64,000 nt of DNA from Candidatus Peribacteria bacterium (GCA_023245775.1 JAHFJR010000002.1:1902-65901), one strand, 5' to 3'. Counted from the first letter of the stretch, positions 9,113 to 56,880 are shown. A program made the numbers and translations. The notes: generated by a model from the letters alone, not told the origin.

Positions 9113-12100
9113 GTGAAATCCTCCGACTTCGTCCATCTCCACTGTCACAGTACCTTCTCGCTCCTCGAGGCGGTGCCTTCCCCCGAAGAGATCATTCTCC
9201 GTGCCAAAGAACTTGGCCAGACTGCGGTGGCGCTTTCGGACAAGGGCTATACGTACGGCCTCATCGAGTTCTATAAAGCAGCGAAGGATCATGGCCTGAA
9301 GGCGATTCTCGGACTCGAGACCTACGTCGCCGCTCGCACGAGACATGACAAAGAGAGCTCCAGCGATACCCGTCGCTCTCCATTGGTCCTCCTCGCAGAG
9401 ACCGAAGAAGGGTACCACAACCTCCTCCAGCTCGCGACGAAAGCTGCGCTCGAGGGCATGTACTACAAGCCGCGTGTCGATACCGAACTTCTGAAACAGT
9501 ACGGCAAGGGGCTCATCGCCCTCACGGGGCCGTTGAGTGGTGCGATCCCGCAAGCGGCACTCGCCGGAGATGATCAGCGAGTGAAGATGCTCCTTGAGCA
9601 GTATCGATCTTTCTTTGGTTCTGAGAATGTCTACTTCGAGCTGAATGATCTACCGAATGTGCCAGGACAATCCGAAACCAATCAGCAACTCATCCGCTAT
9701 GCGAAAGAATTCTCGGTGCCGCTCGTGGCCACGTGCAACAGTCACTACTGCAGACCGGAAGACAGCGAAGCGCACGATGTCCTCCTGTGTATCCAGAAGA
9801 ACGCAAGCGTCACCGACACGAGTCGATTTTCGATGATGGGGAGCGATTTCTCGATGCGTCCGTTCGAGGAGATGGAGACAGCATTTGCCCACGTACCCGA
9901 GGCACTGGAGAATACGCGGGTCATCGCGGATCGGTGCAGCGTGAAGATTCCCTTCGGTCAGTACAAGATCCCCAGTTTCCCCGTGCAGGAAGGGCAAACG
10001 GAAGAGTCGCTCCTGAAGAGTCTGTGTGACACAGGTCTCGAGCGGCGGTATGGGGCGATCCTGAAAAAAAGCCCCGAGCGCACACAGGAAATTCAGTCTC
10101 GTCTTGCCTACGAACTCGAGGTCATCAAGAAAATGGGATTCTCTGGATACTTCCTCATCGTTGCTGACTTCATCTGCGAAGCGAAGAAGCGCGGCATCAC
10201 CGTCGGTCCAGGGCGCGGATCGGCAGCGGGATCCATCGTGAGTTACGTGCTCGATATCACCACACTTGATCCGCTAGAGCACGGTCTTCTCTTCGAGAGA
10301 TTCCTCAACCCCGAGCGTATCAGCATGCCGGATATCGATATCGACTTCGCTGACACACGTCGAGATGAAGTCCTCGAATACGTACGTGGGAAGTACGGTG
10401 CCGATCGCGTCATCCAGATCTGCACGTTCGGGACGCTCGCGGCACGCGCTGCCGTGAAAGATGTTGGCCGTGCATTCGGCGTGTCCTTCGCCGAGATGAA
10501 TGCGCTTGCAAAATTGATTCCAGATCGCCCCGGTACGACCCTCGAGGAGGCTCTCAGCACCGACGAACTGCAGCAGGAAATTGGTAGCAACGAGACCTAC
10601 CGCAAGATTCTGGAGATTGCACTGAAGCTCGAAGGCAAGGCGCGTCACGTGTCGGTCCATGCATGTGGTGTCGTCATCACACCCGAACCGGCAGTGCAGT
10701 ACACCGCGCTCCAGCGTGCGCCGAAGGATGAGAACACCATCATCACCCAGTACGACGCGAAGCCGCTCGAATCGCTCGGCCTTCTGAAGATGGACTTCCT
10801 CGGCCTCAAGAACCTGACGATCATCCAGACGGCTCTCCTCATCATCGAGCGTATGCACAGCGTGAAGATCGACATGGCAACGATCCCAACGAACGACAGA
10901 AAGACGTTCGAACTCCTCTCGCGCGGCGAAACGACGGGGGTGTTTCAACTCGAGTCCGCTGGGATGCGGCGGTATCTGAAGCAACTGAAGCCTACTGCCT
11001 TCGACGACATCACCGCCATGGTCTCGCTCTATCGGCCTGGTCCGATGGACAAGATCCCCGACTACATCAAGTGCAAGAATGGCCAGAAGGATGTCTCGTA
11101 CCTGCATCCCGATCTCGAGTCGATCCTGAAGCCGACGTACGGAGTGGGCATCTATCAGGAGCAGATTCTGGAGATGGCGCGCGTCTTTGCGGGTTTCTCC
11201 CTCGGGGAAGCCGACTTGCTGCGTCGGGCCATCGGCAAGAAGATCAAGAAGGAACTGAATGCACAACGTGAGAAATTCATCCGCGGAGCGGTCGCTCGTG
11301 GATACAAGGAGAAACTCGTGACGACGATGTTCGACGACGTCATCACACCGTTCGCGGGATACGGGTTCAACAAATCACACGGAGCGTGTTATGCGCGCAT
11401 CGCGTACGAAACAGCGTACCTGAAGGCGCACTATCCGACGGATTTCATGGCCGCACTCCTCAGTAGTGAGGACGGTGACACCGACCGCATCAGCATCGAG
11501 ATCGAAGAGGCGCGCGCGATGGGGATCGCGGTGCTGCCGCCGGATATCAACGAATCCCTCGCGCACTTCACGTCGCTCGAGGGCGGCAAGATCCGCTTCG
11601 GCCTCCTCGGCATCAAGGGAGTGGGCGAGAGTTCCATCCGTCAGATCCTGGCCATTCGCGACGGAGTAGATGGGAAACATCGGGCACCTTTTACGAGCAT
11701 CGAAGATCTCGCCATGCGCGTGCCGAGTAAACTGCTCAACAAGAAATTGCTGGAGTCTCTGGCGAAGTCAGGAGCCTTCGACTCACTCGGAGAACGAGCG
11801 ATGCTTGTCTCCCAGTATGACAAGATCGCCGACTGCAGCAAATCCACGTGTGACAGAGGCGCTTCGCAGGCCGATCTCTTCGAGTCTCTTGGGGGTGGCT
11901 CTGCGAATGCTTCCATCGCCTTCGATCCTACGGATCCCGCAAGTCCCCACCAGAAATTGATGTGGGAGAAGGAGACGCTGGGGCTCTATGTCAGCAGCCA
12001 TCCGCTTGCAGGACTCAGGAAGTACATCAGCAAGAAGGCGAGACTCATCGAGACACTCACGGGTGATGACATCAACAGGAAGGTGACGGTGGCTGGCATC

Positions 12101-12937
12101 AGAGAGCAGATGAAACTGATCCATACGAAGAAGGGGGACACGATGGCGATCATCACGATCGAAGATCCCACCGGTCGCATGGAGGTGACGCTGTTCCCGC
12201 GAGTCTATGCCCAGTTCAAAGATCTCCTCGAGAAGCCAGATTCCTTCCTCGTACTCGCAGGCATGCTCGATATGCGTATGGGGCAGCCACAGTTGAAAGC
12301 GGAGGCGATCAAACGTGTCTCCCTCGAGACGATGGTGCAGAAGGCCAAGCAGGAAGGCATGTTCCATGAAGAGGAGACGAAGAACTGGAGTAGTGCCGGC
12401 AGTCGTCGCCATGGAGAAGAGGAGATCCCAGCAACGGTAGAGACGGGCGCGGATGAAGAGATCGCTCCCACCATCGTTCCAAGGTCTCCTGTCATGGCAT
12501 CCCCCTCAGAGAGCCCTCTCGGCCCGCTCGCGGCGTGGATTCAGAGCGGCATGCAGACAGAAGAATCCCTGAAGAAGGTCGGGCTGGAAGGATATGTAGT
12601 GAAAGACGGAAAGTTGAAAGTGCCTGCCTGCCGGACAGGCAGGGAAAGTGAGGATGGAACTGTCAACCTTCCACTGTCCCCGTCCGACCGCATCCGGGCG
12701 GGCACTGTCCACAAGCAGTTTTCCATTTCCATCCACACCATCACACTCCCATCCCGCGCACCGAAACAACTCCTCCTCGATGTGAAGTCGATCTTCGAGA
12801 CATTCCCCGGCTCCGAGAAGGTGCAGCTGAAGATCGGAGAGAAAGATGTGCCGGTGGGACTCACGATCACCATGTCTCCCTTGCTTGAAAAACGCATCGA
12901 AGAGGCGGTGAAGAAGTACGGAGAAGTGGAGAGTTGA
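9113..12937 (+). CDS. dnaE: DNA polymerase III alpha subunit (1274 aa)
   Basis: PHP-domain N-terminus FVHLHCHSTFSLLEA. Conserved pol III alpha blocks (GPGRGSAAGS, PDIDIDF, LKMDFLGL, GYGFNKSH). OB fold near the C-terminus. GTG start 14 nt after the upstream stop. Confidence 0.95.
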   Translation: MKSSDFVHLHCHSTFSLLEAVPSPEEIILRAKELGQTAVALSDKGYTYGLIEFYKAAKDHGLKAILGLETYVAARTRHDKESSSDTRRSPLVLLAETEEGYHNLLQLATKAALEGMYYKPRVDTELLKQYGKGLIALTGPLSGAIPQAALAGDDQRVKMLLEQYRSFFGSENVYFELNDLPNVPGQSETNQQLIRYAKEFSVPLVATCNSHYCRPEDSEAHDVLLCIQKNASVTDTSRFSMMGSDFSMRPFEEMETAFAHVPEALENTRVIADRCSVKIPFGQYKIPSFPVQEGQTEESLLKSLCDTGLERRYGAILKKSPERTQEIQSRLAYELEVIKKMGFSGYFLIVADFICEAKKRGITVGPGRGSAAGSIVSYVLDITTLDPLEHGLLFERFLNPERISMPDIDIDFADTRRDEVLEYVRGKYGADRVIQICTFGTLAARAAVKDVGRAFGVSFAEMNALAKLIPDRPGTTLEEALSTDELQQEIGSNETYRKILEIALKLEGKARHVSVHACGVVITPEPAVQYTALQRAPKDENTIITQYDAKPLESLGLLKMDFLGLKNLTIIQTALLIIERMHSVKIDMATIPTNDRKTFELLSRGETTGVFQLESAGMRRYLKQLKPTAFDDITAMVSLYRPGPMDKIPDYIKCKNGQKDVSYLHPDLESILKPTYGVGIYQEQILEMARVFAGFSLGEADLLRRAIGKKIKKELNAQREKFIRGAVARGYKEKLVTTMFDDVITPFAGYGFNKSHGACYARIAYETAYLKAHYPTDFMAALLSSEDGDTDRISIEIEEARAMGIAVLPPDINESLAHFTSLEGGKIRFGLLGIKGVGESSIRQILAIRDGVDGKHRAPFTSIEDLAMRVPSKLLNKKLLESLAKSGAFDSLGERAMLVSQYDKIADCSKSTCDRGASQADLFESLGGGSANASIAFDPTDPASPHQKLMWEKETLGLYVSSHPLAGLRKYISKKARLIETLTGDDINRKVTVAGIREQMKLIHTKKGDTMAIITIEDPTGRMEVTLFPRVYAQFKDLLEKPDSFLVLAGMLDMRMGQPQLKAEAIKRVSLETMVQKAKQEGMFHEEETKNWSSAGSRRHGEEEIPATVETGADEEIAPTIVPRSPVMASPSESPLGPLAAWIQSGMQTEESLKKVGLEGYVVKDGKLKVPACRTGRESEDGTVNLPLSPSDRIRAGTVHKQFSISIHTITLPSRAPKQLLLDVKSIFETFPGSEKVQLKIGEKDVPVGLTITMSPLLEKRIEEAVKKYGEVES
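12623..12703 (+). repeat. palindromic repeat modules embedded in frame in the dnaE 3' region
   Basis: cctgcctgccggacaggcaggg (12623-12644) is followed by a ccttccact motif. The 27-nt string tccccgtccgaccgcatccgggcgggc (12677-12703) recurs identically at 13394-13420. Confidence 0.8.
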
Positions 12938-12993
12938 GTTCTGCAGCGCGCCCAGAAAGGGCGCTCCAAAATACAGTGATAGAGAGATAAAAT

Positions 12994-13016
12994 GGAGCGG
13001 GCATTCTTGCCCGCGT
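12994..13016. terminator. GC hairpin (gcgggc-attctt-gcccgc) with flanking T/A runs; likely dnaE terminator
   Basis: The 23-nt string ggagcgggcattcttgcccgcgt is identical to 48072-48094. It is followed by cgttcgattttt on the plus strand. Confidence 0.45.
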
Positions 13017-13041
13017 CGTTCGATTTTTCCTTTTCTTCGTT

Positions 13042-13047
13042 CATACT
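13042..13047 (+). promoter_or_regulatory. -10-like hexamer CATACT, 6 nt upstream of the tsaC ATG
   Basis: Part of the recurrent TAnnnT-N6/7-ATG arrangement. No Shine-Dalgarno motif. Confidence 0.4.
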
Positions 13048-13053
13048 GCAGTC

Positions 13054-13755
13054 ATGCACATTCTCCCCGAATCTCCGGAAGCCATTGATGCTGCTCTGAC
13101 CGTCCTGCAGTCGGGCGGCATCGTCATCCATGCGACGGAAACCTGCTACGGCATTGCGTGTGACCTTACGAATCCAAAAGCCGTTGAGAAATTATTCAGG
13201 GTGAAGAAACGACCACCCGATCAGCCCGTCAGCGCGTTATTCCCATCGATGTCCAAGGCTGAGGAGTATGTCGACTTCTCTCCGCGAGCCCTAGAGTTAG
13301 CCAAAAAGTATCTGCCGGGTCCACTGACGATCGTGCTTCCAAGCAAAGCAGATTCCCCCAACCTCTTCGTCATGCCCTCTCCCCCTGCCCCTCTCCCCGT
13401 CCGACCGCATCCGGGCGGGCCGTTCCGGGAGAGGGGTGACTCGTTCCCCTCTCCCCGAAGGGGGGAGGAGTTAGGGGTGGGGGCGACGATCGGCATTCGC
13501 ATTTCCTCCTTCCCTCTCGCGCAGATTCTGGCTTCGCGTTTTGGAAAACCGATGGCGACGACCTCAGCCAATCTTCATGGGCTGCCGAATCCTTACAGTG
13601 TTGCCGATATCCAGTTGCAGTTAGCAGACCAACAGCATCTTCCGGATCTCTTCATCGATAGCGGATCGCTCCCGATCGCTCCTCCATCGACCGTGATCGA
13701 AGTCATCGGTCAAGAGCTTAGAGTCCTGCGAAAAGGGGAAATTGCTATATATTAG
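13054..13755 (+). CDS. tsaC: L-threonylcarbamoyladenylate synthase, Sua5/YrdC/YwlC family (233 aa) with an internal repeat-derived insertion
   Basis: IHATETCYGIACD, KKRPPDQPVS, LPGPLTIVL and TSANLHG are YrdC-domain motifs. Confidence 0.85.
   Translation: MHILPESPEAIDAALTVLQSGGIVIHATETCYGIACDLTNPKAVEKLFRVKKRPPDQPVSALFPSMSKAEEYVDFSPRALELAKKYLPGPLTIVLPSKADSPNLFVMPSPPAPLPVRPHPGGPFRERGDSFPSPRRGEELGVGATIGIRISSFPLAQILASRFGKPMATTSANLHGLPNPYSVADIQLQLADQQHLPDLFIDSGSLPIAPPSTVIEVIGQELRVLRKGEIAIY
13373..13485 (+). repeat. composite palindromic repeat insertion in frame inside tsaC (about 37 codons)
   Basis: It lies between LPGPLTIVL... and ...IGIRISSFP and encodes PSPPAPLPVRPHPGGPFRERGDSFPSPRRGEELGVG. 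It contains the 27-nt string shared with dnaE and the hairpin cccctctcccc-gaa-ggggggagg followed by ttaggggtgg. Confidence 0.8.
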
Positions 13756-15116: not shown

Positions 15117-15119
15117 AGC

Positions 15120-15257
15120 AGCCCTCACTCCGGCGCTGATGCGCCACCTCTCTCCATAAAAATGGAGAGAGGATGTCTAGGAATGAACTCGTATTGTTAT
15201 GGAACGCGGGCCCCCTCCTCTCCATTTTTATGGAGAGGAGGTTGGGAGGTGAGGGCT
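15120..15257. mobile_element. MITE-like palindromic element, copy 1 (138 bp)
   Basis: Terminal inverted repeats agccctcactcc / ggaggtgagggct. Internal hairpins ctctccataaaaatggagag and ctctccatttttatggagag. A near-identical copy is at 42525-42649. Confidence 0.8.
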
Positions 15258-15309
15258 GTACCAGAAATTTTCTGTCAACTTCTGTTCTTTCTTCCGCTAT
15301 CCTCCTCCC

Positions 15310-18057: not shown

Positions 18058-18118
18058 GCCCAGGTGGCGAACCTGCCTCCCGGAGGGAGGATGGCAGACC
18101 TGCCTACCGGCAGGCGCG
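18058..18118 (+). pseudogene. degenerate copy of the tRNA-Leu 5' part, interrupted by two palindromic modules
   Basis: gcccaggtggcgaa + [cctgcctcccggagggagg] + atggcagac + [ctgcctaccggcagg]. With the bracketed palindromes removed it matches the tRNA-Leu 5' end gccggggtggcgaaatggcagac (18373-18395) at 21/23 positions. Confidence 0.65.
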
Positions 18119-18141
18119 TCTTCCTTCCCTATTTCTCTTCT

Positions 18142-18408
18142 ATGTTTACAGTCTATGTGCTTCGTAGCCAAAAGCGAGAATATTGGTATGTAGGACTCAC
18201 TGCCAATCTTGAGCGTCGTGTTACTGAGCATCAGGATGGCAGAGAGCGTACGACAAAACCTTATCGTCCGTTTGATCTTGTACACACTGAAAATTTTACA
18301 ACTCGACCTGAAGCTCGAAAGAGAGAAAAATACTTAAAGTCAGGCTCTGGAAAAGAATGGTTAAAAACCCCTGCCGGGGTGGCGAAATGGCAGACGCATC
18401 AGCCTTAG
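18142..18408 (+). CDS. small GIY-YIG nuclease superfamily protein (88 aa)
   Basis: FTVYVLRSQKREYWYVGLTANLERRVTEHQ...ARKREKYLKSGSGKEW is a GIY-YIG (UPF0213-like) pattern. The 3' end overlaps tRNA-Leu. Confidence 0.75.
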   Translation: MFTVYVLRSQKREYWYVGLTANLERRVTEHQDGRERTTKPYRPFDLVHTENFTTRPEARKREKYLKSGSGKEWLKTPAGVAKWQTHQP

Positions 18409-18458
18409 GAGCTGACGGGAGCAATCCCATGGAGGTTCAAGTCCTCTCCCCGGCACCA
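18373..18458 (+). tRNA. tRNA-Leu (anticodon TAG), long variable arm, CCA encoded
   Basis: Manual cloverleaf. Acceptor GCCGGGG/CCCCGGC. Anticodon stem TCAGC/GCTGA with loop CTTAGGA. Variable arm cgggagcaatcccatg. T-arm GGAGG-TTCAAGT-CCTCT. Confidence 0.85.
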
Positions 18459-34301: not shown

Positions 34302-34311
34302 CGTCGTTCGC

Positions 34312-34393: not shown

Positions 34394-34398
34394 CACGC

Positions 34399-34404
34399 TA
34401 CAAT
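34399..34404 (+). promoter_or_regulatory. -10 hexamer TACAAT, 6 nt upstream of ATG 34411
   Basis: Fits the TAnnnT-N6-ATG pattern. Confidence 0.4.
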
Positions 34405-36824: not shown

Positions 36825-38321
36825 ATGATCGATCCGCGCATCTTCCGTGCCTACGACATTCGTGGCAAAGCCCATGAGCAGCTCACTGAGGAGGCGTGCC
36901 TGCTGATCGGCAGAGCGTTCGGGGAGATTCTGCAGGAGAAATATGGGAAAGAGAACAAGCACCCGGCGGTCGTTGTTGGGCGCGATGCACGGCTACATAG
37001 TCCTGTGTTTGAAGAAAAAATTGTCGAAGGGTTACTCTTGGCAGGTTGTCAGGTTTTTCGCATCGGCCAGACACCGAGTCCCATTAACTACTTCACGATC
37101 TGTACCAAGAAATTCGACGCCGGCGTGCAGGTCACGGCGAGTCATAACCCGAAGGAAGATAATGGTCTGAAGCTTCAGATTCGTGATGCAGAAGCGTTCT
37201 CTGGAGAGGATTTGCAAGATCTTCGTAGGCGCATTGAACGCTCACTACAAGATTCCCCTCTCCCTTCGGGAGAGGGGCTAGGGGTGAGGGAAGGGCAGGC
37301 AGGGGTGAGTGCCGAAAACTTCGATGCAATCACCCCTTACACCTCTTTTCTGACGCAACTTTTCCCCAACGTCGGCCAGGGCAAGAAAATCGTCGTCGAT
37401 GCCGGCAACGGGGTCGCGGGGCCCGTGTACTGCGAGGTGCTGAGGAAGGTCGGCTGTGAGGTGATCGAGATGTACACCGAACCGGATGGGAATTTCCCTA
37501 ATCACGCGGCGGACCCGAGCAAACATGCGACCCTCAGAGAACTGCAAAAACGAGTGGTGGATGAGAAAGCCGATTGCGGATTTGCATTCGACGGTGACGG
37601 AGATCGCATTGGGCTCATCGATGAGAGGGGCGCGATCGTGACGGCCGATTCAACCTTACTCCTCCTCGCGAAGGATCATCTATCGCGTCATCCGAAAGCG
37701 CCGATCATCTTCACCGTGAGTAACTCGAGCCTGCTCGAGAGCGAGGTGAAGGCGTGGGGCGGAGTCCCCGTAATGTGCAAGGTCGGCCACTCGTTCGTGG
37801 AGCATGCGATGCGAGAGCACGGAGCCAAACTCGGCGGCGAGCAGTCGGGACATTTCTTCTGTGGAGAGGATTATTTCGGATTTGATGACGCGCTGGTTGC
37901 GGGACTCAGGATGTTGGCGATTCTTGGATCAACGTGGGCCGAACGCCCGCTCCCTTTGATGGAATCTACAACACAGAAGAAACGGAGCGCCCGTTCGGGG
38001 CGCGTTGACTCGAGAGTATCCGTTTTGATCTCAGCTTTCCCTCGCACCTACCAAACCCCCGAATTCCGTCCACACTGCGCAGATGAGAAAAAATCCGAGG
38101 TCGTTCGTCTTGCCACAGCGCACTTTGCAAAAAAATACCCCGTCGTCACTCTCGACGGCGCACGCATCGATTTTGGTGATGGCGCATGGGCGGGGATACG
38201 AATAAGCAATACGAGTCCGTGCCTGAGCATCTGCATCGAGGCGCGGAGTCCGAAAAAGTTGAAACACGTGGAATCGGAGGTTTTGGAACACTTGAAGACC
38301 TATCCGGAGGTCGAGTTGTAG
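36825..38321 (+). CDS. phosphomannomutase/phosphoglucomutase family protein (498 aa) with repeat-derived insertions
   Basis: IFRAYDIRG, the active-site block TASHNPKEDNG, GFAFDGDGDR and GGEQSGH are alpha-D-phosphohexomutase motifs. Confidence 0.9.
   Translation: MIDPRIFRAYDIRGKAHEQLTEEACLLIGRAFGEILQEKYGKENKHPAVVVGRDARLHSPVFEEKIVEGLLLAGCQVFRIGQTPSPINYFTICTKKFDAGVQVTASHNPKEDNGLKLQIRDAEAFSGEDLQDLRRRIERSLQDSPLPSGEGLGVREGQAGVSAENFDAITPYTSFLTQLFPNVGQGKKIVVDAGNGVAGPVYCEVLRKVGCEVIEMYTEPDGNFPNHAADPSKHATLRELQKRVVDEKADCGFAFDGDGDRIGLIDERGAIVTADSTLLLLAKDHLSRHPKAPIIFTVSNSSLLESEVKAWGGVPVMCKVGHSFVEHAMREHGAKLGGEQSGHFFCGEDYFGFDDALVAGLRMLAILGSTWAERPLPLMESTTQKKRSARSGRVDSRVSVLISAFPRTYQTPEFRPHCADEKKSEVVRLATAHFAKKYPVVTLDGARIDFGDGAWAGIRISNTSPCLSICIEARSPKKLKHVESEVLEHLKTYPEVEL
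37255..37309 (+). repeat. palindromic repeat module in frame inside the PMM/PGM gene
   Basis: cccctctccc-ttcg-ggagagggg followed by ctaggggtgagggaagggcaggcaggggtgag. It encodes SPLPSGEGLGVREGQAGVS. The same module type occurs at 13441-13483 and 51375-51446. Confidence 0.8.
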
Positions 38322-40948: not shown

Positions 40949-41083
40949 TCCTCACCCCTGCCTGCCGGCAGGCAGGTCCCGTCCTCCTCTCCACTGATGT
41001 GGAGAGGAGGTGGCCTGTGTTTCACTAAAAACAGTGCGCCCTTCTCCAGCCCTCAGGCAGGAGAAGGGTCGGGGATGAGGACC
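40949..41083. mobile_element. 135-bp nested palindromic element related to the MITE-like family
   Basis: Ends gtcctcacccc / ggggatgaggac. Serial hairpins: cctgcctgccggcaggcagg (perfect 20-nt palindrome, 40957-40976), cctcctctcca-ctgatg-tggagaggagg, cccttctcc..ggagaaggg. Confidence 0.7.
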
Positions 41084-50806: not shown

Positions 50807-51991
50807 ATGCGCATCCTCTTCACCCGTTTCCCTCTCGAGAGCGCCGACGGCGGCAGCGAGAATCAGACGATCTGGCTGATGGAGGGGCTAAGGGCTCGCG
50901 GGCATGAGGTGAGTTTTCTCGGAAGTTGTGATGTTCTCTTGCGTCGCACAAAAGAATTGGGAATGAAGAATGATGAATTAAGAATAGGGATTCCTCCTGT
51001 AACGAAATGGGGAGCGATCAGTTTTCTCTGGCGAAGAAAAAAAATGCAACAAACTCTGATTGCAGAAGTGCAGAAACTTTCCACTTTCCCTACCTGTCCG
51101 GTAGGCAGGCACTTTCCACCTTCCACTCTTATCATGCTCAGCCTCAGCGAGAAGCTCCTCCTCACTCCTTGGGCAGTCTCGCAGGGCATGAGAGTGATCT
51201 GGATCGAGCACGACCGCATCGGAGCATGGCTTCGATGGAATCCTTGGCTGCCGATGCTTCGACGTCTCTCGAAGCTCGTGACGATCGTCTGTGTGTCTGA
51301 ACTGAGCAGGAAGATGTATGAAGAGATTGGGTTTGAGAAGAGCAATCTTATCGCTATTCCGAATGGGATTCCTTCCCCTCTCCCTTCGGCCCGCCCGAAC
51401 GTACCCATTCGGTACGGGCGGGGAGAGGGGTCAGGGGTGAGGGAGGAAAAACAACTCCGTCTCGGTTGTCTCTCCCGCCTGAGTCCCGAAAAGGGTGTGG
51501 ATGTGCTCATACAATCTCTCGAATCCCTGCCGGAAGTGTCTCTGAGCATCGTCGGAAAGGGGCGTGATGAGGCGTACCTTCGTCAGTTGATCTTGGATGA
51601 CACGCAGCGCATGGGGGGAGAGCGGATCACTCTGACATCCTCCGTCGAGGATCTCGATGCGTTCTATCGTTCACTCGATGTGCTCGTCCTTCCCTCCTCC
51701 GACCATGATCCATTTGGGTTGGTTGCGGCAGAGGCGATGATGCGCGGTCTCCCCGTCATTATCACCGATGCATGCGGTATCGCAGGGTACATGGAACACG
51801 ATGAGGATGCCCTGATCGTTCCTGCAGGATCGCCGCGAGCCCTTACAGATGCCATTCAGCATCTTCTTGAGCCTCGGGCACGAGAACGGCTGGGTGCGAG
51901 GGGACAGACGAAGGCAGAAGAGCGCTTCAGTTTGAGCAGAATGATTGATGCCTATGAGGAATTGTTGCTCGGGGAGAGAAAATGTGTTTAG
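50807..51991 (+). CDS. glycosyltransferase family 4 (GT-B, group 1) (394 aa) with two repeat-derived insertions
   Basis: MRILFTRFPLESADGGSE N-domain. The C-domain SRLSPEKGVDVLI...VLPSSDHDPFGLVAAEAMMRGLPVI is an EX7E-type motif. Confidence 0.85.
   Translation: MRILFTRFPLESADGGSENQTIWLMEGLRARGHEVSFLGSCDVLLRRTKELGMKNDELRIGIPPVTKWGAISFLWRRKKMQQTLIAEVQKLSTFPTCPVGRHFPPSTLIMLSLSEKLLLTPWAVSQGMRVIWIEHDRIGAWLRWNPWLPMLRRLSKLVTIVCVSELSRKMYEEIGFEKSNLIAIPNGIPSPLPSARPNVPIRYGRGEGSGVREEKQLRLGCLSRLSPEKGVDVLIQSLESLPEVSLSIVGKGRDEAYLRQLILDDTQRMGGERITLTSSVEDLDAFYRSLDVLVLPSSDHDPFGLVAAEAMMRGLPVIITDACGIAGYMEHDEDALIVPAGSPRALTDAIQHLLEPRARERLGARGQTKAEERFSLSRMIDAYEELLLGERKCV
51077..51128 (+). repeat. ttccac-flanked palindromic module in frame in the GT4 gene
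   Basis: ctttccactttccc + tacctgtccggtaggcagg + cactttccaccttccactc, encoding STFPTCPVGRHFPPSTL. The same architecture occurs at 53998-54061. Confidence 0.8.
51375..51446 (+). repeat. nested palindromic module in frame in the GT4 gene
   Basis: cccctctcccttcgg [cccgcccgaacgtacccattcggtacgggcgg] ggagaggggtcaggggtgagggagg, encoding SPLPSARPNVPIRYGRGEGSGVRE. Confidence 0.8.
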
Positions 51992-52322: not shown

Positions 52323-54884
52323 ATGCGGCGCCGAGGACTCACTTCATTCCTGCTGACGATCTTCTTGCTCCTGCAGAGTGTTCCCGCATTTGCGGCTCCT
52401 TGGGCTGCTCTCGCATCTATCGTGACCCTAGACTTTCGCACAGAGATCGATGCCTTCAGTGTGCGTTTGCCTCTCTCAGGATCAGAGGTTCGCTATTCGT
52501 ATGTGCAAGGAAAAAAGTGGTCGCCTTGGATCGTCTTCGACAATGACGGAGATAGCAGCAGAGGAGAGGAGAGCGAGCTCGTGATGCTTCCTTCTTCTGT
52601 GCGCTCTCTCCGGGTACAGGGCGTTGCCTCACGGGAGGATGTCCATCCGATCCATGTATCGAAGGATCCTGTCTCTGTACGTGTCGCATCCAAGACAGCT
52701 GGAATGAATCCAAGCATCATCCGTCGTCGTGAGTGGGGTGCAGATGAATCCTACCTCTTCGATCTGCCGACGAGAGAAGAGACGATGCCCTCCGCTGGAG
52801 ATATCGCGAAGGGAGACACGGTGGTCACCGATTCTGTGCAGAGTGGGAATCGCATCAAGGACTGCCTCGAGGCGCAGCAGAAGTACGGAAGCGAATTCAA
52901 GATTGCGTCGACCCTTTCGAAAGACTCCTCAGGCAAGAGCTATCGTTGGCCCTTGCAGTACAGCTCCGCCGTGAAATTGTTGGTGGTGCACCACTCGGCG
53001 CTCAACGTGAATGGAGACCCACGTCCACCCATTGAACGGATCCGCGCACTCTACAAGTACCATGCTCTCACGAAGGGCTGGGGCGACATCGGCTACCACT
53101 TCGTCGTTGACGAGAACGGTCAGGTCTACGAGGGGAGAGAGGGTGGAACATCCGTTGTTGGAGGTCATGCCTACTGCAACAACGTCGGGACCATTGGCAT
53201 TGTCCTGATGGGGAATTTCGAACTCGAGCAGCCTAGTCAAGTGCAAGTGAAAGGGCTCCAGCGACTCTTGAGTGATCTCAGTCACGAGTATGGGATCGAT
53301 GTCACACGGAGTGTGCAGTTCCACGGGAAGACATTCGCTTCGCCCGTCGTCGGGCATCGGGATCTCCTCTCTACTCTCTGTCCCGGCTACTCGCTCTTCG
53401 GAGTGCTCTCGCAGATCGTCGCGCATCTGAAGTCCGGAGAACTCGATGCTTCGGTACAATTTCCTCCGCCTCGTTCGAGTTCTTCTTCGTCAGCATTCTC
53501 TTCATCTGCGAATGGCGGATTTCTGGGGCTTGCCGAAGGCATTTCGTTCATCGGTCGCACCGCGATCGATATGAACCCGAGTGGGAAGCAGCGTCTGAGT
53601 TTTGCGTACACGGCGGGGGAGGCAGGAGCGTACGAGGGCAAGAAGATCGGCGACGTGCGTCTGTCATCGCCCAGCATCACGCTGATGCAAGATGACGGTA
53701 TCCATCACATTCCAGTGAGAAAAGGCATTCTTCTTCAGACGGATCTTCCGGCGGGTGAATCCGTCACGATCCAACTGATCGTCCAGGCACCACCCGATGC
53801 GGGGAGCTATTCGATGGAGATCGCAGGACTCCGTTTTACGCTCTCCGTTGCGGGTCGTCGTGCTCGCGCGGGAGAGTTCATCAATCCCTTTGCAGGCAAC
53901 CCTGTGCACATCGTGCATCCGACGGAGATCAAACGAGATGCTGCACTGACCGTGCGTTCTGTTTCTCTGAGACGATCTCGTCAGATTTCTTCCTCATCAC
54001 CTTCCACTTTCCCTGCCTTGCCGGCAGGCAGGCACCTTCCACCTTCCACTTTAAACTTTCCGCCTTCCGCCCCTTCTTCCATCCGTATTCGTCTGAGCGC
54101 GTCCCCTTCTCCGACCATCACCTTCCAAGCCGCAGGGAGGATCAATGACACGGTGGTTCCTGCGGGGACATCGGTGCATCTGTTCGCGCGTGGATCCGAG
54201 TGCTTTGCAGCAATAGCCGGAACCCTCTCTGTTCGTGATCGTGTTCTGCGTTTGCAATCACAGCAGTCCGAATTCCTCACGATTGATGCTGTGAGATCGA
54301 ACGTTGGTGCGTACAAGGGCGTCCTCGAGTGCCGTGTCCTTGAGGGGTCTCTCGTGCTCATCAACGAACTGCCGCTTGAAGACTACATGGCTGGGCTCGC
54401 TGAAGAGCCGGATAGTGAGCCGTACGAGAAACAACGTGCGTTCGCGATCGCCGCTCGCACGTATGGCGCGTACTACATGCAATCTTCACAGCGTAAATTT
54501 CCGAGCATGCCCTACGATGGCAGCGACAGTCCTGCGGAATTTCAGTTCTATCTGGGGTTGAACTTTGGAGAGAAGAATCCGCAGTGGCTTCGCGCTGTTT
54601 CGAGTACTGCACACCAAGTTCTTCGTTCTTCGGGGCAGCTCATCAAGTCGCCGTACTTCAGTAGTGACGACGGACGTACGAGAAGCCCCGCAGAAGCTGG
54701 CTGGAAAAATTTTCCGTTTGCAGAAATATTTGCAAGCAAGCGTGACCCGTGGTGTGCAGGCCTTCCTCTCAGCGGTCATGGAGTCGGCATGTCGGGCTGC
54801 GGAGCCCGAGGGCAAGCCATTGCCGGTAGTAGTGCTGAGCAGATTCTGCAGTACTACTATCCTGGGGTGCGGATTCAGGAGTAG
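52323..54884 (+). CDS. exported bifunctional cell-wall enzyme: N-acetylmuramoyl-L-alanine amidase (Amidase_2/PGRP) domain plus C-terminal SpoIID/LytB domain (853 aa)
   Basis: Signal peptide MRRRGLTSFLLTIFLLLQSVPAFA. Amidase_2 block LVVHHSAL...GWGDIGYHFVVDENGQVYEGREG...GHAYCNNVGTIGIVLMGNF...GHRDL..TLCPG. SpoIID-like block EDYMAGLAEEP...RAFAIAARTYGAYY...SPYFSSDDGRT...GHGVGMSGCGA. Confidence 0.8.
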   Translation: MRRRGLTSFLLTIFLLLQSVPAFAAPWAALASIVTLDFRTEIDAFSVRLPLSGSEVRYSYVQGKKWSPWIVFDNDGDSSRGEESELVMLPSSVRSLRVQGVASREDVHPIHVSKDPVSVRVASKTAGMNPSIIRRREWGADESYLFDLPTREETMPSAGDIAKGDTVVTDSVQSGNRIKDCLEAQQKYGSEFKIASTLSKDSSGKSYRWPLQYSSAVKLLVVHHSALNVNGDPRPPIERIRALYKYHALTKGWGDIGYHFVVDENGQVYEGREGGTSVVGGHAYCNNVGTIGIVLMGNFELEQPSQVQVKGLQRLLSDLSHEYGIDVTRSVQFHGKTFASPVVGHRDLLSTLCPGYSLFGVLSQIVAHLKSGELDASVQFPPPRSSSSSSAFSSSANGGFLGLAEGISFIGRTAIDMNPSGKQRLSFAYTAGEAGAYEGKKIGDVRLSSPSITLMQDDGIHHIPVRKGILLQTDLPAGESVTIQLIVQAPPDAGSYSMEIAGLRFTLSVAGRRARAGEFINPFAGNPVHIVHPTEIKRDAALTVRSVSLRRSRQISSSSPSTFPALPAGRHLPPSTLNFPPSAPSSIRIRLSASPSPTITFQAAGRINDTVVPAGTSVHLFARGSECFAAIAGTLSVRDRVLRLQSQQSEFLTIDAVRSNVGAYKGVLECRVLEGSLVLINELPLEDYMAGLAEEPDSEPYEKQRAFAIAARTYGAYYMQSSQRKFPSMPYDGSDSPAEFQFYLGLNFGEKNPQWLRAVSSTAHQVLRSSGQLIKSPYFSSDDGRTRSPAEAGWKNFPFAEIFASKRDPWCAGLPLSGHGVGMSGCGARGQAIAGSSAEQILQYYYPGVRIQE
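53998..54061 (+). repeat. ttccac-flanked palindromic module in frame in the amidase gene
   Basis: caccttccactttcc + ctgccttgccggcaggcagg + caccttccaccttccactttaaactttcc, encoding PSTFPALPAGRHLPPSTLNFP. Confidence 0.8.
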
Positions 54885-56758: not shown

Positions 56759-56880
56759 TGCTATCTTTCCCCTGACGGGGCCGAAGGTACCACCGTTTCC
56801 TCTCGAGGAAGGTTGGCGGACGCGTATTGGGTCGGTTACCCTGCCTACCGGCAGGCAGGCACGCGTCACTCTTGATAGGC
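56759..56880 (-). promoter_or_regulatory. SAM-I-type riboswitch aptamer upstream of metK
   Basis: Minus strand: CUAUCAAGAG...CGCCAACC-UUCCUCGAGAGGAAA-CGGUGGUACC...GGGGAAAGAUAG. P1 CUAUC/GAUAG. The conserved AAGAG, GCCAACC, GGUG and GAAAGAU elements appear in SAM-I order. Confidence 0.7.

What the first reader, a model, noticed from the sequence alone, without database searches (positions are those of the whole stretch)
12623..12703. Palindromic repeat modules read through in frame inside dnaE; 27 nt shared with tsaC in a different frame
- **Seen:** the dnaE segment between the OB-fold region and the conserved C-terminal tail contains cctgcctgccggacaggcaggg, a near-perfect palindrome translated PACRTGRE. 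It also contains a ccttccact motif and the 27-nt string tccccgtccgaccgcatccgggcgggc (12677-12703).
- **Seen:** that 27-mer recurs identically at 13394-13420 inside tsaC. In dnaE it is read as SPSDRIRAG; in tsaC it is read one frame over as PVRPHPGGP.
- **Inference:** identical nucleotides in two essential genes, read in different frames, argue that the DNA element is the conserved unit and has been inserted into coding sequence. This recalls Rickettsia palindromic elements.
Basis: partly seen in the sequence, partly recalled or inferred. Interest (0 to 1): 0.75.

Follow-up and report, generated by a model that had tools for sequence, protein, structure and literature searches.

The report
Tiny hairpin repeats translated inside genes
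The DnaE and TsaC genes of this uncultivated Peregrinibacteria (CPR) bacterium carry 20-35-base hairpin-forming repeat elements that are read through in frame as disordered loops. The same tiny sequences occur, letter for letter, in bacteria of many other phyla, which suggests an unusually small and widespread kind of mobile DNA.

Summary
The 27-mer is exact at 12677-12703 (dnaE) and 13394-13420 (tsaC), is read in different frames, and recurs in two independent assemblies.

- **What the 27-mer is.** It is a 24-nt hairpin element, "PAL2" (CCCGTCCG-ACCGCATC-CGGGCGGG). It also occurs complete, with unrelated flanks, in 10 low-GC metagenome contigs, three of them inside RecJ or HhH-GPD genes.
- **What the palindrome is.** It is a 21-nt variant of "PAL" (CCTGCCTRCCGGYAGGCAGG). 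PAL has at least 127 exact copies in genomes of many phyla (fewer than 10 expected) and occurs in 48 viral stretches.
- **How both sit in dnaE.** Both lie inside heptamer tandem repeats, in a linker that is 3 to about 45 aa long among orthologues. One relative has an empty site.
- **Predicted structure.** AlphaFold places the DnaE and TsaC inserts in low-confidence loops.
- **Extent in the window.** Five genes here carry such inserts.
- **Insertion mode.** Intact tRNA genes compared with their duplicated 5' parts show exact 20-nt PAL insertions with no target duplication.
- **Linked genes.** PAL often lies just upstream of small GIY-YIG cassettes. The G-rich hairpins flank DUF559 endonuclease cassettes.

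The closest known analogues are cyanobacterial SDRs, intragenic REPs and Rickettsia RPEs. The mobilising enzyme is not identified.

The parts
9113..12937 (+). dnaE (DNA polymerase III alpha, 1274 aa), the host gene. The insert lies after the OB fold (aa 991-1067) and before the conserved C-terminal alpha/beta domain (aa ~1206-1274).
   Evidence: Pfam PHP, DNA_pol3_alpha, finger, HHH_6 and OB domains. Orthologues are annotated Candidatus Peribacteria/Peribacteraceae. AlphaFold model of aa 960-1274.
12608..12650 (-). Composite repeat: a heptamer tandem tract (GAAAGTT GAAAGTG | GAAAGTG) with the PAL hairpin nested inside. It is in inverse orientation relative to the copies at 51079-51127 and 54002-54050.
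   Evidence: The copies are 43 nt long and 91% and 88% complementary to this one. Removing the 21 nt leaves a continuous heptamer tract, which the sequence shows directly.
12623..12643 (.). PAL, 21-nt variant (CCTGCCTGCCGGACAGGCAGG) of the 20-nt palindrome CCTGCCTRCCGGYAGGCAGG. It is translated PACRTGR.
   Evidence: The DNA hairpin folds at -8.9 kcal/mol, z = -3.8. The 20-nt form has at least 127 exact copies in 120 genome stretches from many phyla.
12667..12712 (+). Second heptamer-like tract (CCTTCCA CTGTCC ... CACTGTCCAC) enclosing PAL2. The 8-nt CACTGTCC lies directly on both sides of the hairpin.
   Evidence: CACTGTCC is at 12672-12679 and 12703-12710.
12679..12702 (+). PAL2, a 24-nt hairpin element (CCCGTCCG ACCGCATC CGGGCGGG).
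   Evidence: It folds as an 8-bp stem with an 8-nt loop. The same 24 nt, with unrelated flanks, occur in 10 low-GC metagenome contigs.
13054..13755 (+). tsaC (threonylcarbamoyl-AMP synthase, YrdC/Sua5 family, 233 aa), the host gene.
   Evidence: Pfam PF01300, matched in two stretches. PDB alignments split at aa ~100-141.
13375..13485 (+). Composite insertion in the TsaC loop (aa ~104-140). A first G-rich hairpin (CCCCTCTCCCC...GGGAGAGGGG, 13388-13436) carries PAL2 (13396-13419) in its loop. It is followed by a spacer and a second G-rich hairpin module (CCCCTCTCCCC GAA GGGGGGAGGAG TTA GGGGTGGGGG, 13446-13483).
   Evidence: The 116-nt segment as a whole folds as single-stranded DNA at -34.9 kcal/mol, z = -2.4; the minimum-energy structure pairs the arms differently from the scheme given here, which rests on sequence complementarity. 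The segment is absent from relatives L003 and L005 and from PDB homologues. pLDDT is 48-67 here against 90-98 elsewhere. A DUF559 cassette flanked by hairpin modules sits in the same loop, just before the conserved TIGIRI codons, in L183.
37255..37303 (+). G-rich hairpin module (CCCCTCTCCC TTCG GGAGAGGGG CTA GGGGTGAGGG) plus a half PAL (GGGCAGGCAGG), read in frame in phosphoglucomutase/phosphomannomutase between domains I and II.
   Evidence: About 14 extra residues relative to PDB 2h4l.
51079..51127 (+). Heptamer tract plus 21-nt PAL variant (CCTACCTGTCCGGTAGGCAGG, 51089-51109), read in frame (STFPTCPVGRHFPPST) in a GT4 glycosyltransferase.
51375..51443 (+). G-rich hairpin module with a 33-nt hairpin, 'PAL4' (51390-51422), nested in its loop. 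It is read in frame between the two GT4 domains.
   Evidence: It folds at -23.3 kcal/mol, z = -3.1. The reverse complement of PAL4 matches, with 1 mismatch, an insertion in a tRNA-Val copy of an unrelated MAG, L061.
53999..54072 (+). Heptamer tract plus 21-nt PAL variant (CCTGCCTTGCCGGCAGGCAGG, 54012-54032), read in frame (STFPALPAGRHLPPST) in the linker between the amidase and SpoIID domains.
40957..40976 (.). Non-coding perfect 20-nt PAL, immediately followed by another hairpin module (40983-41011). A PAL-free heptamer tract lies at 41226-41265.
56840..56859 (.). Non-coding 20-nt PAL (CCTGCCTACCGGCAGGCAGG), upstream of metK.
18058..18114 (+). Copy of the 5' part of tRNA-Leu, interrupted by two PAL-type palindromes (18072-18090 and 18099-18114). 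It lies just upstream of a small GIY-YIG gene (18142-18408) and the intact tRNA-Leu (18373-18458).
   Evidence: This is one of the filled-versus-empty comparisons.

Best explanation
The dnaE segment 12608-12712 and the tsaC segment 13375-13485 are mosaics of very small hairpin-forming repeat elements inserted into coding DNA.

- **The elements.** They are PAL (20/21 nt), PAL2 (24 nt), PAL4 (33 nt) and G-rich hairpin modules of about 35 nt.
- **How they sit.** They lie inside short heptamer tandem tracts or nested in each other's loops.
- **How they spread (inferred).** They propagate as DNA, or through a single-stranded intermediate, by an enzyme supplied in trans. They insert precisely, without a regular target-site duplication, and preferentially into loops of existing hairpins and into tandem repeats.
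- **What survives in genes.** In protein-coding genes the only copies that persist keep the reading frame, contain no stop codon and fall in tolerant surface loops or interdomain linkers. There they are simply transcribed and translated as disordered peptide.
- **The shared 27-mer.** It results from two independent insertions of the same element. It is not gene conversion and not a selected peptide.

**Shown:** the identity and repetition of the elements, their insertion status, their loop location, exact insertion without duplication, and their cross-phylum distribution.

**Inferred:** selfish mobility, the single-stranded hairpin intermediate, and the enzyme. The candidates are the small GIY-YIG cassettes for PAL, DUF559 endonuclease cassettes for the G-rich modules, or an IS200/RAYT-type Y1 transposase.
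For: **1. The repeats are real.**
- The 27-mer is exact twice, with 0 matches in any of 100 shuffles.
- Independent assemblies are identical across both copies.

**2. They are insertions.**
- The DnaE linker ranges from 3 aa (L007, an empty site) to about 45 aa among orthologues.
- The TsaC loop is 31 aa between the alignment anchors in the shortest orthologue and 65 aa here. PDB homologues lack about 30 aa at this place.
- PGM has about 14 extra aa relative to 2h4l.

**3. The DNA, not the peptide, is the conserved unit.**
- PAL2 is read in different frames in dnaE and tsaC.
- Relative L003 carries PAL at the same DnaE linker in another frame (SLPTGQAGK) and with different flanks. Its nearest relatives lack it, so that insertion was independent.

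**4. Filled-versus-empty comparisons.** Duplicated tRNA 5' parts compared with the intact tRNA downstream show exact 20-nt PAL insertions with no duplication in L059, L100 (two insertions), L032 and L226. The window copy at 18058-18114 carries two degenerate PAL-type palindromes (19 and 16 nt) in the same arrangement. L061 shows an insertion matching PAL4 in the same way.

**5. Flank statistics for 121 PAL sites.**

| Measure | Observed | Control means |
|---|---|---|
| Target duplication of 4 nt or more | 3 | 0.6-1.1 |
| Shared direct 7-mer within 20 nt | 18 | 1.6-3.3 |
| Inverted 6-mer within 20 nt | 26 | 5.7-8.8 |

PAL is also nested in the centre of another PAL in L027, L033, L039, L047 and L117.

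**6. Distribution.**
My estimate of the chance expectation is fewer than 10. They lie in Patescibacteria, Bacteroidota (including cultured isolates), Omnitrophota, Planctomycetota, Nitrospirota, Chloroflexi and Proteobacteria.
- 48 viral stretches carry PAL.
- PAL2 is complete in 10 low-GC contigs.

**7. In-frame copies elsewhere.**
- PAL lies within FtsK, a class I Trp/Tyr-tRNA synthetase, a histidine kinase and a PMT-type glycosyltransferase, mostly read as LPAGRQ.
- PAL2 lies within RecJ and HhH-GPD proteins. One of these reads PVRPHPGG, as in the window's TsaC.

**8. Depletion from coding DNA.** Only 19 of 129 exact 20-nt copies lie in long stop-free stretches.

**9. Structure.**
- DnaE insert pLDDT is 48-67, next to a domain at 96-98.
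- TsaC insert pLDDT is 48-67, against 90-98 elsewhere.

**10. Hairpins.** PAL, PAL4 and the G-rich module fold well below their shuffles (z -2.3 to -3.8). PAL2 folds as an 8-bp stem but is not distinguishable from shuffles (z -1.3).

**11. Candidate enzymes.**
- GIY-YIG is the most recurrent ORF family near PAL.
- PAL lies 20-100 nt upstream of it in six loci.
- DUF559 cassettes flanked by G-rich hairpins sit in frame in TsaC (L183) and in LeuRS (L041).
Against: - **No enzyme shown.** No transposase or other enzyme has been shown to move these elements. No Y1 transposase was found in the 64-kb window, and the one in relative L003 is flanked by a different hairpin.
- **GIY-YIG is a weak association.** It is adjacent to only about 4% of PAL sites. 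The link could simply reflect shared preference for neutral DNA next to tRNA genes.
- **Length problem.** The 20-nt length is not a multiple of three, so every coding copy needs an extra compensating change. I could show this directly only as the 21-nt variants here (3 of 5 such variants are in ORFs, a small sample).
- **Mixed flank pattern.** Some copies have 7-15-nt direct repeats on both sides: L003 15 nt, window 7-8 nt, L073 and L113 7 nt. The tRNA cases have none, so a single insertion mechanism does not explain all flanks.
- **Translation is inferred.** Read-through rests on intact frames only. There are no RNA or protein data.
- **Taxonomy rests on labels.** Cross-phylum identity relies on MAG record titles for most loci, although several are cultured isolates.
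Confidence: 0.8

Rival explanations
1. Local gene conversion or duplication between dnaE and tsaC, which lie 717 nt apart, copied a 27-37-nt patch from one gene to the other. No mobile element is involved.
For: The two copies are close together, in the same orientation and 100% identical over 27 nt, or 92% over 37 nt. The window holds only these two copies of PAL2.
Against: - The 24-nt core occurs complete, always with its CCCGT prefix, in 10 unrelated low-GC metagenome contigs with unrelated flanks. These include RecJ and HhH-GPD genes.
- PAL4, which has the same outer stem, lies in the GT4 gene 38 kb away and in a tRNA-Val copy of another organism.
- In tsaC the element sits in the loop of another repeat hairpin. 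In dnaE it sits in a heptamer tract, so the contexts are unrelated.
Confidence: 0.03
2. The repeats are a selected functional feature of the host, for example nucleic-acid-level signals such as RNA hairpins that control mRNA stability, translation pausing or replication, or useful flexible peptide linkers. On this view they are maintained by selection and not by selfish spread.
For: - PAL, PAL4 and the G-rich module form hairpins more stable than their shuffles; PAL2 does not clearly exceed them (z -1.3).
- Several sit between protein domains.
- PAL lies at a roughly constant 20-100 nt upstream of GIY-YIG ORFs in six loci, which could mean a cis-acting role for that cassette.
- A terminator-like hairpin repeat follows dnaE (12985-13021).
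Against: - Positions are not conserved among orthologues. The closest relatives have empty or differently filled sites.
- The same element occurs in coding, intergenic, dead tRNA-fragment and nested contexts, and in unrelated phyla.
- Frames differ between copies.
- Copies are strongly depleted from coding DNA.
Confidence: 0.1
3. The palindromes are technical artefacts: adaptor or linker sequence, or chimeric assembly junctions, incorporated into metagenome assemblies.
For: - PAL is a perfect 20-nt palindrome found at seemingly random places in MAGs from many studies. Junction adaptors can look like this.
- No paper in the searched library contains the string.
Against: - Independent assemblies of the same population reproduce both loci exactly.
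- Copies show evolutionary variation: A/G and C/T positions, 21-nt variants and truncated copies.
- Coding copies keep the frame open in real genes.
- Copies occur in genomes of cultured isolates such as Winogradskyella echinorum KCTC 22026, Olivibacter oleidegradans CCM 7765 and Flagellimonas yonaguniensis.
- Copies are nested and have non-random contexts.
Confidence: 0.02
4. The small hairpins are not independently mobile. They are leftovers (solo ends or footprints) of larger endonuclease-encoding cassettes that inserted at these sites and then lost their ORF by deletion. The cassettes would be DUF559 for the G-rich modules and GIY-YIG for PAL.
For: - In L183 the same TsaC loop holds a complete in-frame DUF559 ORF bounded by hairpin modules, and its right end lies just before the conserved TIGIRI codons, as in the window.
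- In L041 a DUF559 ORF with inverted G-rich hairpin ends sits in frame in LeuRS.
- The window's TsaC insert looks like a left hairpin, a 9-nt spacer and a right hairpin.
Against: - PAL and PAL2 are single symmetric hairpins with no second end.
- Exact 20-nt insertions into tRNA copies are not cassette footprints.
- Most DUF559 homologues are free-standing, and only some show G-rich-module peptides at their ends.
- The window contains no DUF559 gene.
- This account may hold for the G-rich modules without explaining PAL and PAL2, which are the subject of the finding.
Confidence: 0.25

Closest known systems
Small dispersed repeats (SDR1-8) of heterocyst-forming cyanobacteria (Elhai et al. 2008, Genome Res 18:1484; the reference is listed, and its content is recalled from memory because the paper is not held)
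   Same: - Size class: 21-27 nt there, 20-33 nt here.
- Predicted hairpin structure.
- Copies nested inside copies of themselves.
- Copies embedded in tandem heptamer repeats.
- Found in varied contexts.
- No associated transposase identified.
   Different: - SDRs were reported as essentially confined to one cyanobacterial subgroup. PAL is identical across many phyla and also occurs in viral contigs.
- In-frame translation within essential genes is prominent here.
- Sequence relatedness to SDR1-8 could not be tested.
- The links to GIY-YIG and DUF559 cassettes are, as far as I can tell, not part of the SDR description.
REPs / REPINs, including GTAG- and CGTC-tagged palindromic repeats (Di Nocera et al. 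2013, PMC3733652; Bertels & Rainey 2011, PMC3116915)
   Same: - GC-rich palindromes of 20-40 bp, and multiple families per genome.
- Some copies lie inside genes, often replication or repair genes. That paper reports a REP inside the DnaE gene of R. conorii.
- Insertion into other palindromes is described.
- Thought to be moved in trans by an HUH Y1 transposase (RAYT).
   Different: - PAL has no GTAG or CGTC tag. PAL2 contains CGTC, but inside the stem.
- No RAYT was found in the window.
- REP families are normally species- or genus-specific and mostly extragenic, whereas these are identical across phyla.
- The REPIN doublet organisation is not seen.
Rickettsia palindromic elements (RPE; Ogata et al. 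2000/2002, cited)
   Same: Palindromic repeats inserted in frame into functional protein-coding genes, including essential ones, and tolerated at permissive sites.
   Different: - RPE-1 is about 100-150 bp and restricted to Rickettsia (from memory). The elements here are 20-35 nt modules combined as mosaics.
- The host is a CPR bacterium.
- There is no sequence relationship that I could test.
Mobile GC clusters and palindromes of fungal mitochondria (yeast GC clusters, Neurospora PstI palindromes, double-hairpin elements; from memory, with related literature surfacing)
   Same: Short GC-rich palindromes that spread within a genome, insert into coding and RNA genes, and co-occur with homing-endonuclease genes of the GIY-YIG and LAGLIDADG types.
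   Different: Organellar and lineage-specific, with different sequences. Some generate short target duplications.

Membership tests
REP / REPIN (RAYT-associated repetitive extragenic palindromes) | Imperfect GC-rich palindrome of 20-40 bp present in many copies | tested here: met
   PAL is 20/21 nt, PAL2 24 nt and PAL4 33 nt. All three have self-complementary arms and fold as hairpins; PAL2's energy is within the range of its shuffles. The window holds 7 PAL-type copies, and at least 127 copies occur elsewhere.
REP / REPIN (RAYT-associated repetitive extragenic palindromes) | Conserved GTAG or CGTC tetranucleotide tag at one end of the palindrome | tested here: not met
   PAL (CCTGCCTRCCGGYAGGCAGG) has neither tag, and its flanks are not conserved. 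PAL2 contains CGTC at positions 3-6, but inside the stem, so that case is inconclusive.
REP / REPIN (RAYT-associated repetitive extragenic palindromes) | A cognate RAYT (Y1 HUH transposase) gene in the genome, flanked by the same REPs | tested here: inconclusive
   phmmer found no Y1_Tnp among the window's ORFs, but only 64 kb of the genome is available. Relative L003 has a Y1_Tnp gene flanked by a different hairpin.
REP / REPIN (RAYT-associated repetitive extragenic palindromes) | Inverted doublets (REPINs) as the replicative unit | tested here: not met
   PAL copies are mostly single. Only 6 of the 120 stretches hold two or three exact copies, and spacing is irregular.
Rickettsia palindromic elements (RPE) | In-frame insertion in functional ORFs at tolerated sites | tested here: met
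   dnaE, tsaC, pgm, GT4 (two sites) and the amidase/SpoIID gene all stay open through the elements. The DnaE and TsaC inserts fall in predicted disordered loops.
Rickettsia palindromic elements (RPE) | Element of about 100-150 bp, with family consensus shared among Rickettsia genomes | tested here: not met
   The units here are 20-35 nt, and the organism is a Peregrinibacteria/Peribacteria.
Cyanobacterial small dispersed repeats (SDR) | 21-27-nt dispersed repeat with conserved hairpin | tested here: met
Cyanobacterial small dispersed repeats (SDR) | Embedded in tandem heptamer repeats and nested within copies of themselves | tested here: met
   Heptamer tracts surround PAL at 12608-12650, 51079-51127, 53999-54072 and in L003. 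Flanks share direct 7-mers at 18 of 121 sites against about 2-3 expected. PAL lies within PAL in L027, L033, L039, L047 and L117.
Cyanobacterial small dispersed repeats (SDR) | Sequence identity to SDR1-8 and restriction to Nostocales-type cyanobacteria | not testable with these tools
   The SDR sequences are not held. The distribution found here clearly differs, covering many non-cyanobacterial phyla.
MITE (miniature inverted-repeat transposable element) | Terminal inverted repeats plus a fixed-length target-site duplication, size 70-300 bp | tested here: not met
   Only 3 of 121 PAL sites have flanking direct repeats of 4 nt or more. The exact 20-nt insertions show no duplication. The size is 20-33 nt.
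Intron / intein (removed from RNA or protein) | Ribozyme structure (group I or II) or intein splicing domain | tested here: not met
   Rfam gives no match in 12400-13700 even at E up to 1. Pfam finds no intein or Hint domain in DnaE or TsaC. The frames stay open through all the inserts. Removal at the RNA level itself was not testable.

The most novel reading that the evidence does not exclude
PAL, PAL2, PAL4 and the G-rich hairpins may belong to a previously undescribed, cross-phylum class of 'nano' mobile elements of 20-35 nt. Under this reading:

- they insert precisely, without target duplication, into hairpin loops, tandem repeats, tRNA-gene copies and protein-coding genes;
- they are the cis-acting partners (ends or recognition hairpins) of very small endonuclease cassettes, namely GIY-YIG cassettes that home next to or into tRNA genes and hsdS, and DUF559 cassettes that insert in frame into TsaC and LeuRS;
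- together they would form a widespread system that remodels essential proteins with translated 'LPAGRQ'- or 'GEGxGVR'-type loops and moves between phyla, possibly on phages.
Probability: 0.3. Interest if true: 0.85.

Novelty: new variant of a known kind. Interest (0 to 1): 0.68.

Why it matters
- **Coding sequence as a home for selfish DNA.** Even the replicative polymerase and a universal tRNA-modification enzyme of a reduced CPR genome serve as landing pads for selfish DNA only 20-35 nt long. Part of the 'extra' sequence typical of CPR proteins may therefore be translated repeat DNA and not adaptive insertions.
- **Consequences for annotation.** Gene annotation, protein-family alignments and structure prediction for uncultivated bacteria are affected. 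Peptides such as LPAGRQ, PVRPHPGG and GEGxGVR mark repeat DNA, not homology.
- **A limit on element size.** If the identity of PAL across phyla reflects true mobility, these would be among the smallest mobile elements known, and far more widely spread than the cyanobacterial SDRs.
- **A route to the mechanism.** The filled and empty tRNA copies beside GIY-YIG cassettes, and the DUF559 cassettes with hairpin ends, offer concrete and testable handles on the enzyme that moves them. For SDR-like and CGTC-type repeats that enzyme has remained unidentified.

Tried and rejected
- **Chance.** Rejected: 0 matches in 100 shuffles.
- **Assembly artefact.** Rejected by independent assemblies.
- **Gene conversion between dnaE and tsaC.** Rejected once PAL2 turned up with unrelated flanks elsewhere. 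Note that 43 of the 55 hits of the 20-mer lack the CCCGT prefix and have no shared flanks, mostly in 61-78% GC DNA, and I take them as chance. Only contigs carrying the full CCCGT prefix count (10 with the exact 24-mer).
- **Known RNA family.** None found in 12400-13700. At gathering threshold the whole window yields only the two tRNAs.
- **Fixed target-site duplication, as in a MITE.** Not supported statistically, although a few copies have 7-15-nt flanking repeats.
- **RAYT or Y1 transposase in the window.** Not found. The one in L003 has a different hairpin.
- **Lineage-specific modules.** The window's heptamer tract, the 28-nt AT-loop hairpin, the terminator-like hairpin and the 22-nt PAL2 core were not found in the 851 kb of PAL-bearing loci from other taxa. 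Those modules are probably lineage-specific.
- **PAL2 and PAL4 in viral contigs.** No hits.
- **Literature.** The PAL string appears in no held paper. A Peregrinibacteria-plus-palindrome search gave nothing relevant. Elhai 2008 could not be opened.
- **20 versus 21 nt by fuzzy matching.** The first attempt was flawed because it absorbed a flanking base. It was redone properly, but the 21-nt sample is small (n = 5 in genomes).
- **DNA for P0166.** This second TsaC with a DUF559 insert could not be fetched.


Full report
**1. Observation**

- The window comes from a Peregrinibacteria (Candidatus Peribacteria/Peribacteraceae, CPR) genome. All close DnaE homologues carry that annotation, and the best is 81% identical.
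- The ORF at 9113-12937 is a complete dnaE, with PHP, polymerase, finger, HhH and OB domains. The ORF at 13054-13755 is a YrdC/Sua5-type tsaC.
  - the near-palindrome at 12623-12644, read PACRTGRE;
  - CCTTCCACT at 12667-12675;
  - the 27-mer at 12677-12703, recurring identically at 13394-13420 in a frame shifted by one base.
- None of 100 shuffles of the window gave a match to the 27-mer, even with up to three mismatches allowed.
- Two independently assembled contigs from other ENA samples are 99.98% and 100% identical to the window across both copies, so the repeats are not assembly artefacts.

**2. Anatomy of the dnaE segment**

The segment is a mosaic. It begins with a heptamer tandem tract (GAAAGTT GAAAGTG ... 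GAAAGTG), interrupted by a 21-nt hairpin that I call PAL. A short spacer follows. A second heptamer-like tract (..CCACTGTCC ... CACTGTCCAC) is interrupted by a 24-nt hairpin, CCCGTCCG-ACCGCATC-CGGGCGGG, which I call PAL2 and which is the core of the 27-mer.

The PAL-plus-heptamer composite recurs, in opposite orientation, at 51079-51127 and 54002-54050, at 88-91% identity over 43 nt. Both small elements fold as hairpins when taken as single strands, although only PAL folds clearly better than its shuffles (z -3.8; PAL2 z -1.3).

**3. These are insertions into permissive protein sites**

*DnaE.*
- Among 120 Peribacteria DnaE orthologues, the stretch between the conserved 'KKVGL' helix and the conserved 'SISIHT...' C-terminal domain ranges from 3 residues (P0006, locus L007, 'DRP') to about 45. 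The window has 42.
- An AlphaFold model of DnaE residues 960-1274 gives pLDDT 48-67 for the insert (aa 1163-1204). The adjoining C-terminal domain scores 96-98 and the OB fold 93-98.

*TsaC.*
- Solved YrdC/Sua5 structures and close relatives lack about 30 residues between the 'PGPLTIVLP' strand and the 'IGIRI' strand.
- Across 120 orthologues this loop spans 31 to 65 residues between the alignment anchors. The window has the longest apart from two cassette-bearing proteins.
- The TsaC model has mean pLDDT 90, with only the insert at 48-67.

*Other genes in the window.* The same kinds of module are read in frame in three more genes:
- phosphoglucomutase (37255-37303, about 14 extra residues relative to PDB 2h4l);
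- a GT4 glycosyltransferase, at two sites (51079-51127 and 51375-51443);
- an amidase/SpoIID protein (53999-54072, in the interdomain linker).

No gene in the window appears to be split by a module.

**4. The DNA, not the peptide, is the unit**

- PAL2 is read in different frames in dnaE and tsaC.
- Relative L003 (DnaE 79% identical) has PAL in the same linker, but in another frame (SLPTGQAGK) and between different heptamers (a 15-nt direct repeat, CAAAAACCAAATTCC). Its nearest relatives P0004, P0005, P0006 and P0011 lack it, so this is an independent insertion into the same permissive linker.
- The TsaC loop of other Peribacteria contains other translated repeat modules. One example is 'LPVRQAG' in P0148, the reading expected of a 21-nt PAL variant (inferred from the peptide; its DNA was not fetched).

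**5. The elements are not confined to this genome**

*PAL.*
I estimate that chance would give fewer than 10, even allowing for GC-rich genomes.
- The hits come from Patescibacteria (Saccharibacteria, WWE3, Uhr-, Wolfe-, Doudna- and Daviesbacteria), Bacteroidota, Omnitrophota, Planctomycetota, Nitrospirota, Chloroflexi, Bdellovibrionales and Proteobacteria. The Bacteroidota include cultured Winogradskyella, Olivibacter and Flagellimonas strains.
- The flanks are unrelated between loci.
- 48 IMG/VR viral stretches also carry PAL, some with several copies.

*PAL2.* A metagenome scan for a 20-mer of PAL2 returned 55 hits.
- 43 of them lack the prefix and share no flanks, mostly in 61-78% GC DNA; I take these as chance.
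- 12 lie in contigs of 38-58% GC, and all 12 are preceded by CCGT. Ten carry the exact 24-mer, again with unrelated flanks.

*PAL4.* The reverse complement of PAL4 (window 51390-51422) matches, with one mismatch, an insertion in a MAG labelled Gammaproteobacteria (L061).

*G-rich hairpin module.* The module (CCCCTCTCC-loop-GGAGAGGGG-NNN-GGGGTGAGG) occurs in Bacteroidota and deltaproteobacterial loci.

*Lineage-specific modules.* The particular heptamers and an AT-loop hairpin were not found in those loci.

**6. How they insert**

Small GIY-YIG genes next to tRNA genes provide natural filled-versus-empty pairs. Upstream of the cassette lies a duplicated 5' part of the tRNA, and downstream lies the intact tRNA.

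- Comparing the two copies shows PAL as an exact 20-nt insertion with no duplicated target. The cases are L059 (WWE3, tRNA-Lys), L100 (two PALs, tRNA-Leu), L032 (Bacteroidetes, tRNA-Arg) and L226 (viral contig).
- The window itself shows the same arrangement at 18058-18114, against tRNA-Leu at 18373-18458.
- An insertion matching PAL4 is seen the same way in L061.

Flank statistics over 121 PAL sites:

| Measure | Observed | Control means |
|---|---|---|
| Flanking direct repeat of 4 nt or more | 3 | 0.6-1.1 |
| Shared direct 7-mer within 20 nt | 18 | 1.6-3.3 |
| Inverted 6-mer within 20 nt | 26 | 5.7-8.8 |

PAL is therefore preferentially embedded in local tandem repeats and in the loops or centres of other palindromes. 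It sits in the centre of another PAL in L027, L033, L039, L047 and L117, and in the loop of a terminator-like hairpin in L118. In the window, PAL2 and PAL4 sit in the loops of G-rich hairpins. A preference for hairpin loops with no target duplication suggests, but does not prove, a single-stranded hairpin intermediate.

**7. Selection in coding DNA**

- Only 19 of 129 exact 20-nt PAL copies lie in long stop-free stretches. My expectation from typical bacterial coding density would be 85-90%.
- The real coding copies are mostly read as LPAGRQ. They occur in FtsK (within the motor domain), a class I Trp/Tyr-tRNA synthetase, a histidine kinase ATPase domain and a PMT-type glycosyltransferase.
- PAL2 lies within RecJ and two HhH-GPD glycosylases. 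One reads PVRPHPGG, as in the window's TsaC.
- Twenty nucleotides is not a multiple of three. The coding copies in the window and in L003 are all 21-nt variants, which fits frame selection, but the sample is small.

**8. Candidate partners (inferred)**

*GIY-YIG.*
- GIY-YIG is the most recurrent ORF family within 1.5 kb of PAL: 6 loci plus the window.
- PAL lies 20-100 nt upstream of the GIY-YIG ORF or domain in six loci. In one of these, L096, the cassette is in frame inside a type I R-M specificity gene.

*DUF559.*
- In another Peribacteria (L183), the same TsaC loop contains a complete DUF559 (PD-(D/E)xK, Vsr-like) ORF in frame. It is bounded by hairpin modules, and its right end lies just before the conserved TIGIRI codons, as does the window's G-rich module.
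- In a Chitinophagaceae (L041), a DUF559 ORF flanked by inverted G-rich hairpin modules sits in frame in leucyl-tRNA synthetase.
- The window's TsaC insert therefore looks like the two ends of such a cassette without the ORF, with PAL2 nested in one end.

*Limits.*
- The association is suggestive only. Most DUF559 homologues are free-standing, and only some show module-derived termini.
- No Y1 transposase was found in the window. The Y1 transposase in L003 has its own, different hairpin.

**9. Comparison with what is known**

- In-frame palindromic repeats in genes are known. Rickettsia RPEs are one case. [quoted passage not shown]
- The closest description of the anatomy seen here is the cyanobacterial SDR families of Elhai et al. 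2008: 21-27-nt hairpins, nested in themselves and embedded in tandem heptamers. The reference appears, and its content is from my memory because the paper was not readable.
- What differs here:
  - the host is a CPR bacterium;
  - the same 20-33-nt sequences are identical across many phyla and occur in viral contigs;
  - exact insertion without duplication is demonstrated;
  - the elements are linked to GIY-YIG and DUF559 cassettes.
- No paper in the searchable library contains the PAL string. This shows absence from that library only.

**10. Verdict**

I class it as a new variant of a known kind (REP/RPE/SDR-like tiny palindromic repeats translated within genes). It has an unexpected breadth of distribution, and its mobilising mechanism is unidentified.

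Noticed in passing
window 18058-18458: A small GIY-YIG gene (18142-18408, 88 aa) lies between a palindrome-disrupted copy of the 5' part of tRNA-Leu (18058-18125) and the intact tRNA-Leu(TAG) (18373-18458); the ORF's last codons overlap the tRNA. The same architecture (tRNA 5' copy with PAL, then GIY-YIG, then intact tRNA) occurs in WWE3 (L059), Bacteroidetes (L032), L100 and a viral contig (L226). It looks like a cassette that homes to tRNA genes.
   Followed up: partly
window 34225-34727: tRNA-Asp (34225-34301) is followed by several tandem copies of its 3' end (TGGCTCCGCCAC...), joined through an 18-24-nt palindrome (CGTCGTTCGCGAACGACG). A second small GIY-YIG gene follows (34408-34668), then one more copy of the tRNA end (34680-34727).
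   Followed up: partly
L183 6280-6760 (TsaC of another Peribacteria); L041 6920-7410 (LeuRS of a Chitinophagaceae): A complete DUF559 (PF04480/PF18741) endonuclease ORF is inserted in frame inside the host gene, bounded by G-rich hairpin modules. In L041 these form terminal inverted repeats. This may be a non-spliced, translated endonuclease cassette whose solo ends resemble the window's G-rich modules.
   Followed up: partly
window 15119-15259 and 42524-42651: Two copies (83% identity over 141 nt) of an intergenic element made of two AT-loop hairpins (CCTCTCTCCATAAAAATGGAGAGAGG and CCTCCTCTCCATTTTTATGGAGAGGAGG), bounded by inverted CAGCCCTCAC / GTGAGGGCTG ends. The layout is MITE-like. A third copy of one hairpin is at 40983-41011.
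   Followed up: no
window 12985-13021 and 48063-48099: A terminator-like hairpin repeat (GGAGCGGGCATTCTTGCCCGC, 89-94% identical over 32-37 nt). One copy lies just downstream of the dnaE stop codon.
   Followed up: no
window 1329-1607 (inside ORF 184-3864): A tandem 30-nt repeat (about nine units) encoding a Cys/His/Glu-rich decapeptide repeat (..CE.ECH.EE..) in a large protein with no Pfam match in its relatives.
   Followed up: no
L229 3915-4124 (IMG/VR contig IMGVR_UViG_3300025106_000007); L211/L220/L222 (IMGVR_UViG_3300037242_000417): One viral contig has a head-to-tail array of ten 21-nt PAL units (CCATGCCTACCGGCAGGCAGG). Another carries at least 6 dispersed exact PAL copies in 29 kb.
   Followed up: no
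P0022 and P0031 (DnaE orthologues), aa ~325-370: These orthologues carry a second lineage-specific insertion of about 35-40 aa in the polymerase N-terminal half. Its peptides look repeat-derived (e.g. SSDELTAHSSQLTAVQ), which suggests other permissive sites in DnaE.
   Followed up: no
L003 22452-22477 and 23365-23390, next to Y1_Tnp at 23400-23783(-): The IS200/RAYT-like Y1 transposase gene of the related genome is directly followed by a hairpin (TCCAGTGCGGCCTTCCAGGCCGCGAT), which recurs 0.9 kb away. This is a REP/RAYT-like pair unrelated in sequence to PAL.
   Followed up: partly
L105 ~1265-1320; L092 ~5700-5790; L024 ~3090-3170: PAL is found nested inside other widespread short palindromic motifs. 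In L105 it sits inside a G-rich module, giving 'FGEGQ-GLPAGRQ-GEVR' within a histidine-kinase ATPase domain. In L092 it sits inside a GTCATCCTGAG...GAAGGATC motif. Several cross-phylum tiny repeat families therefore co-occur and nest.
   Followed up: no
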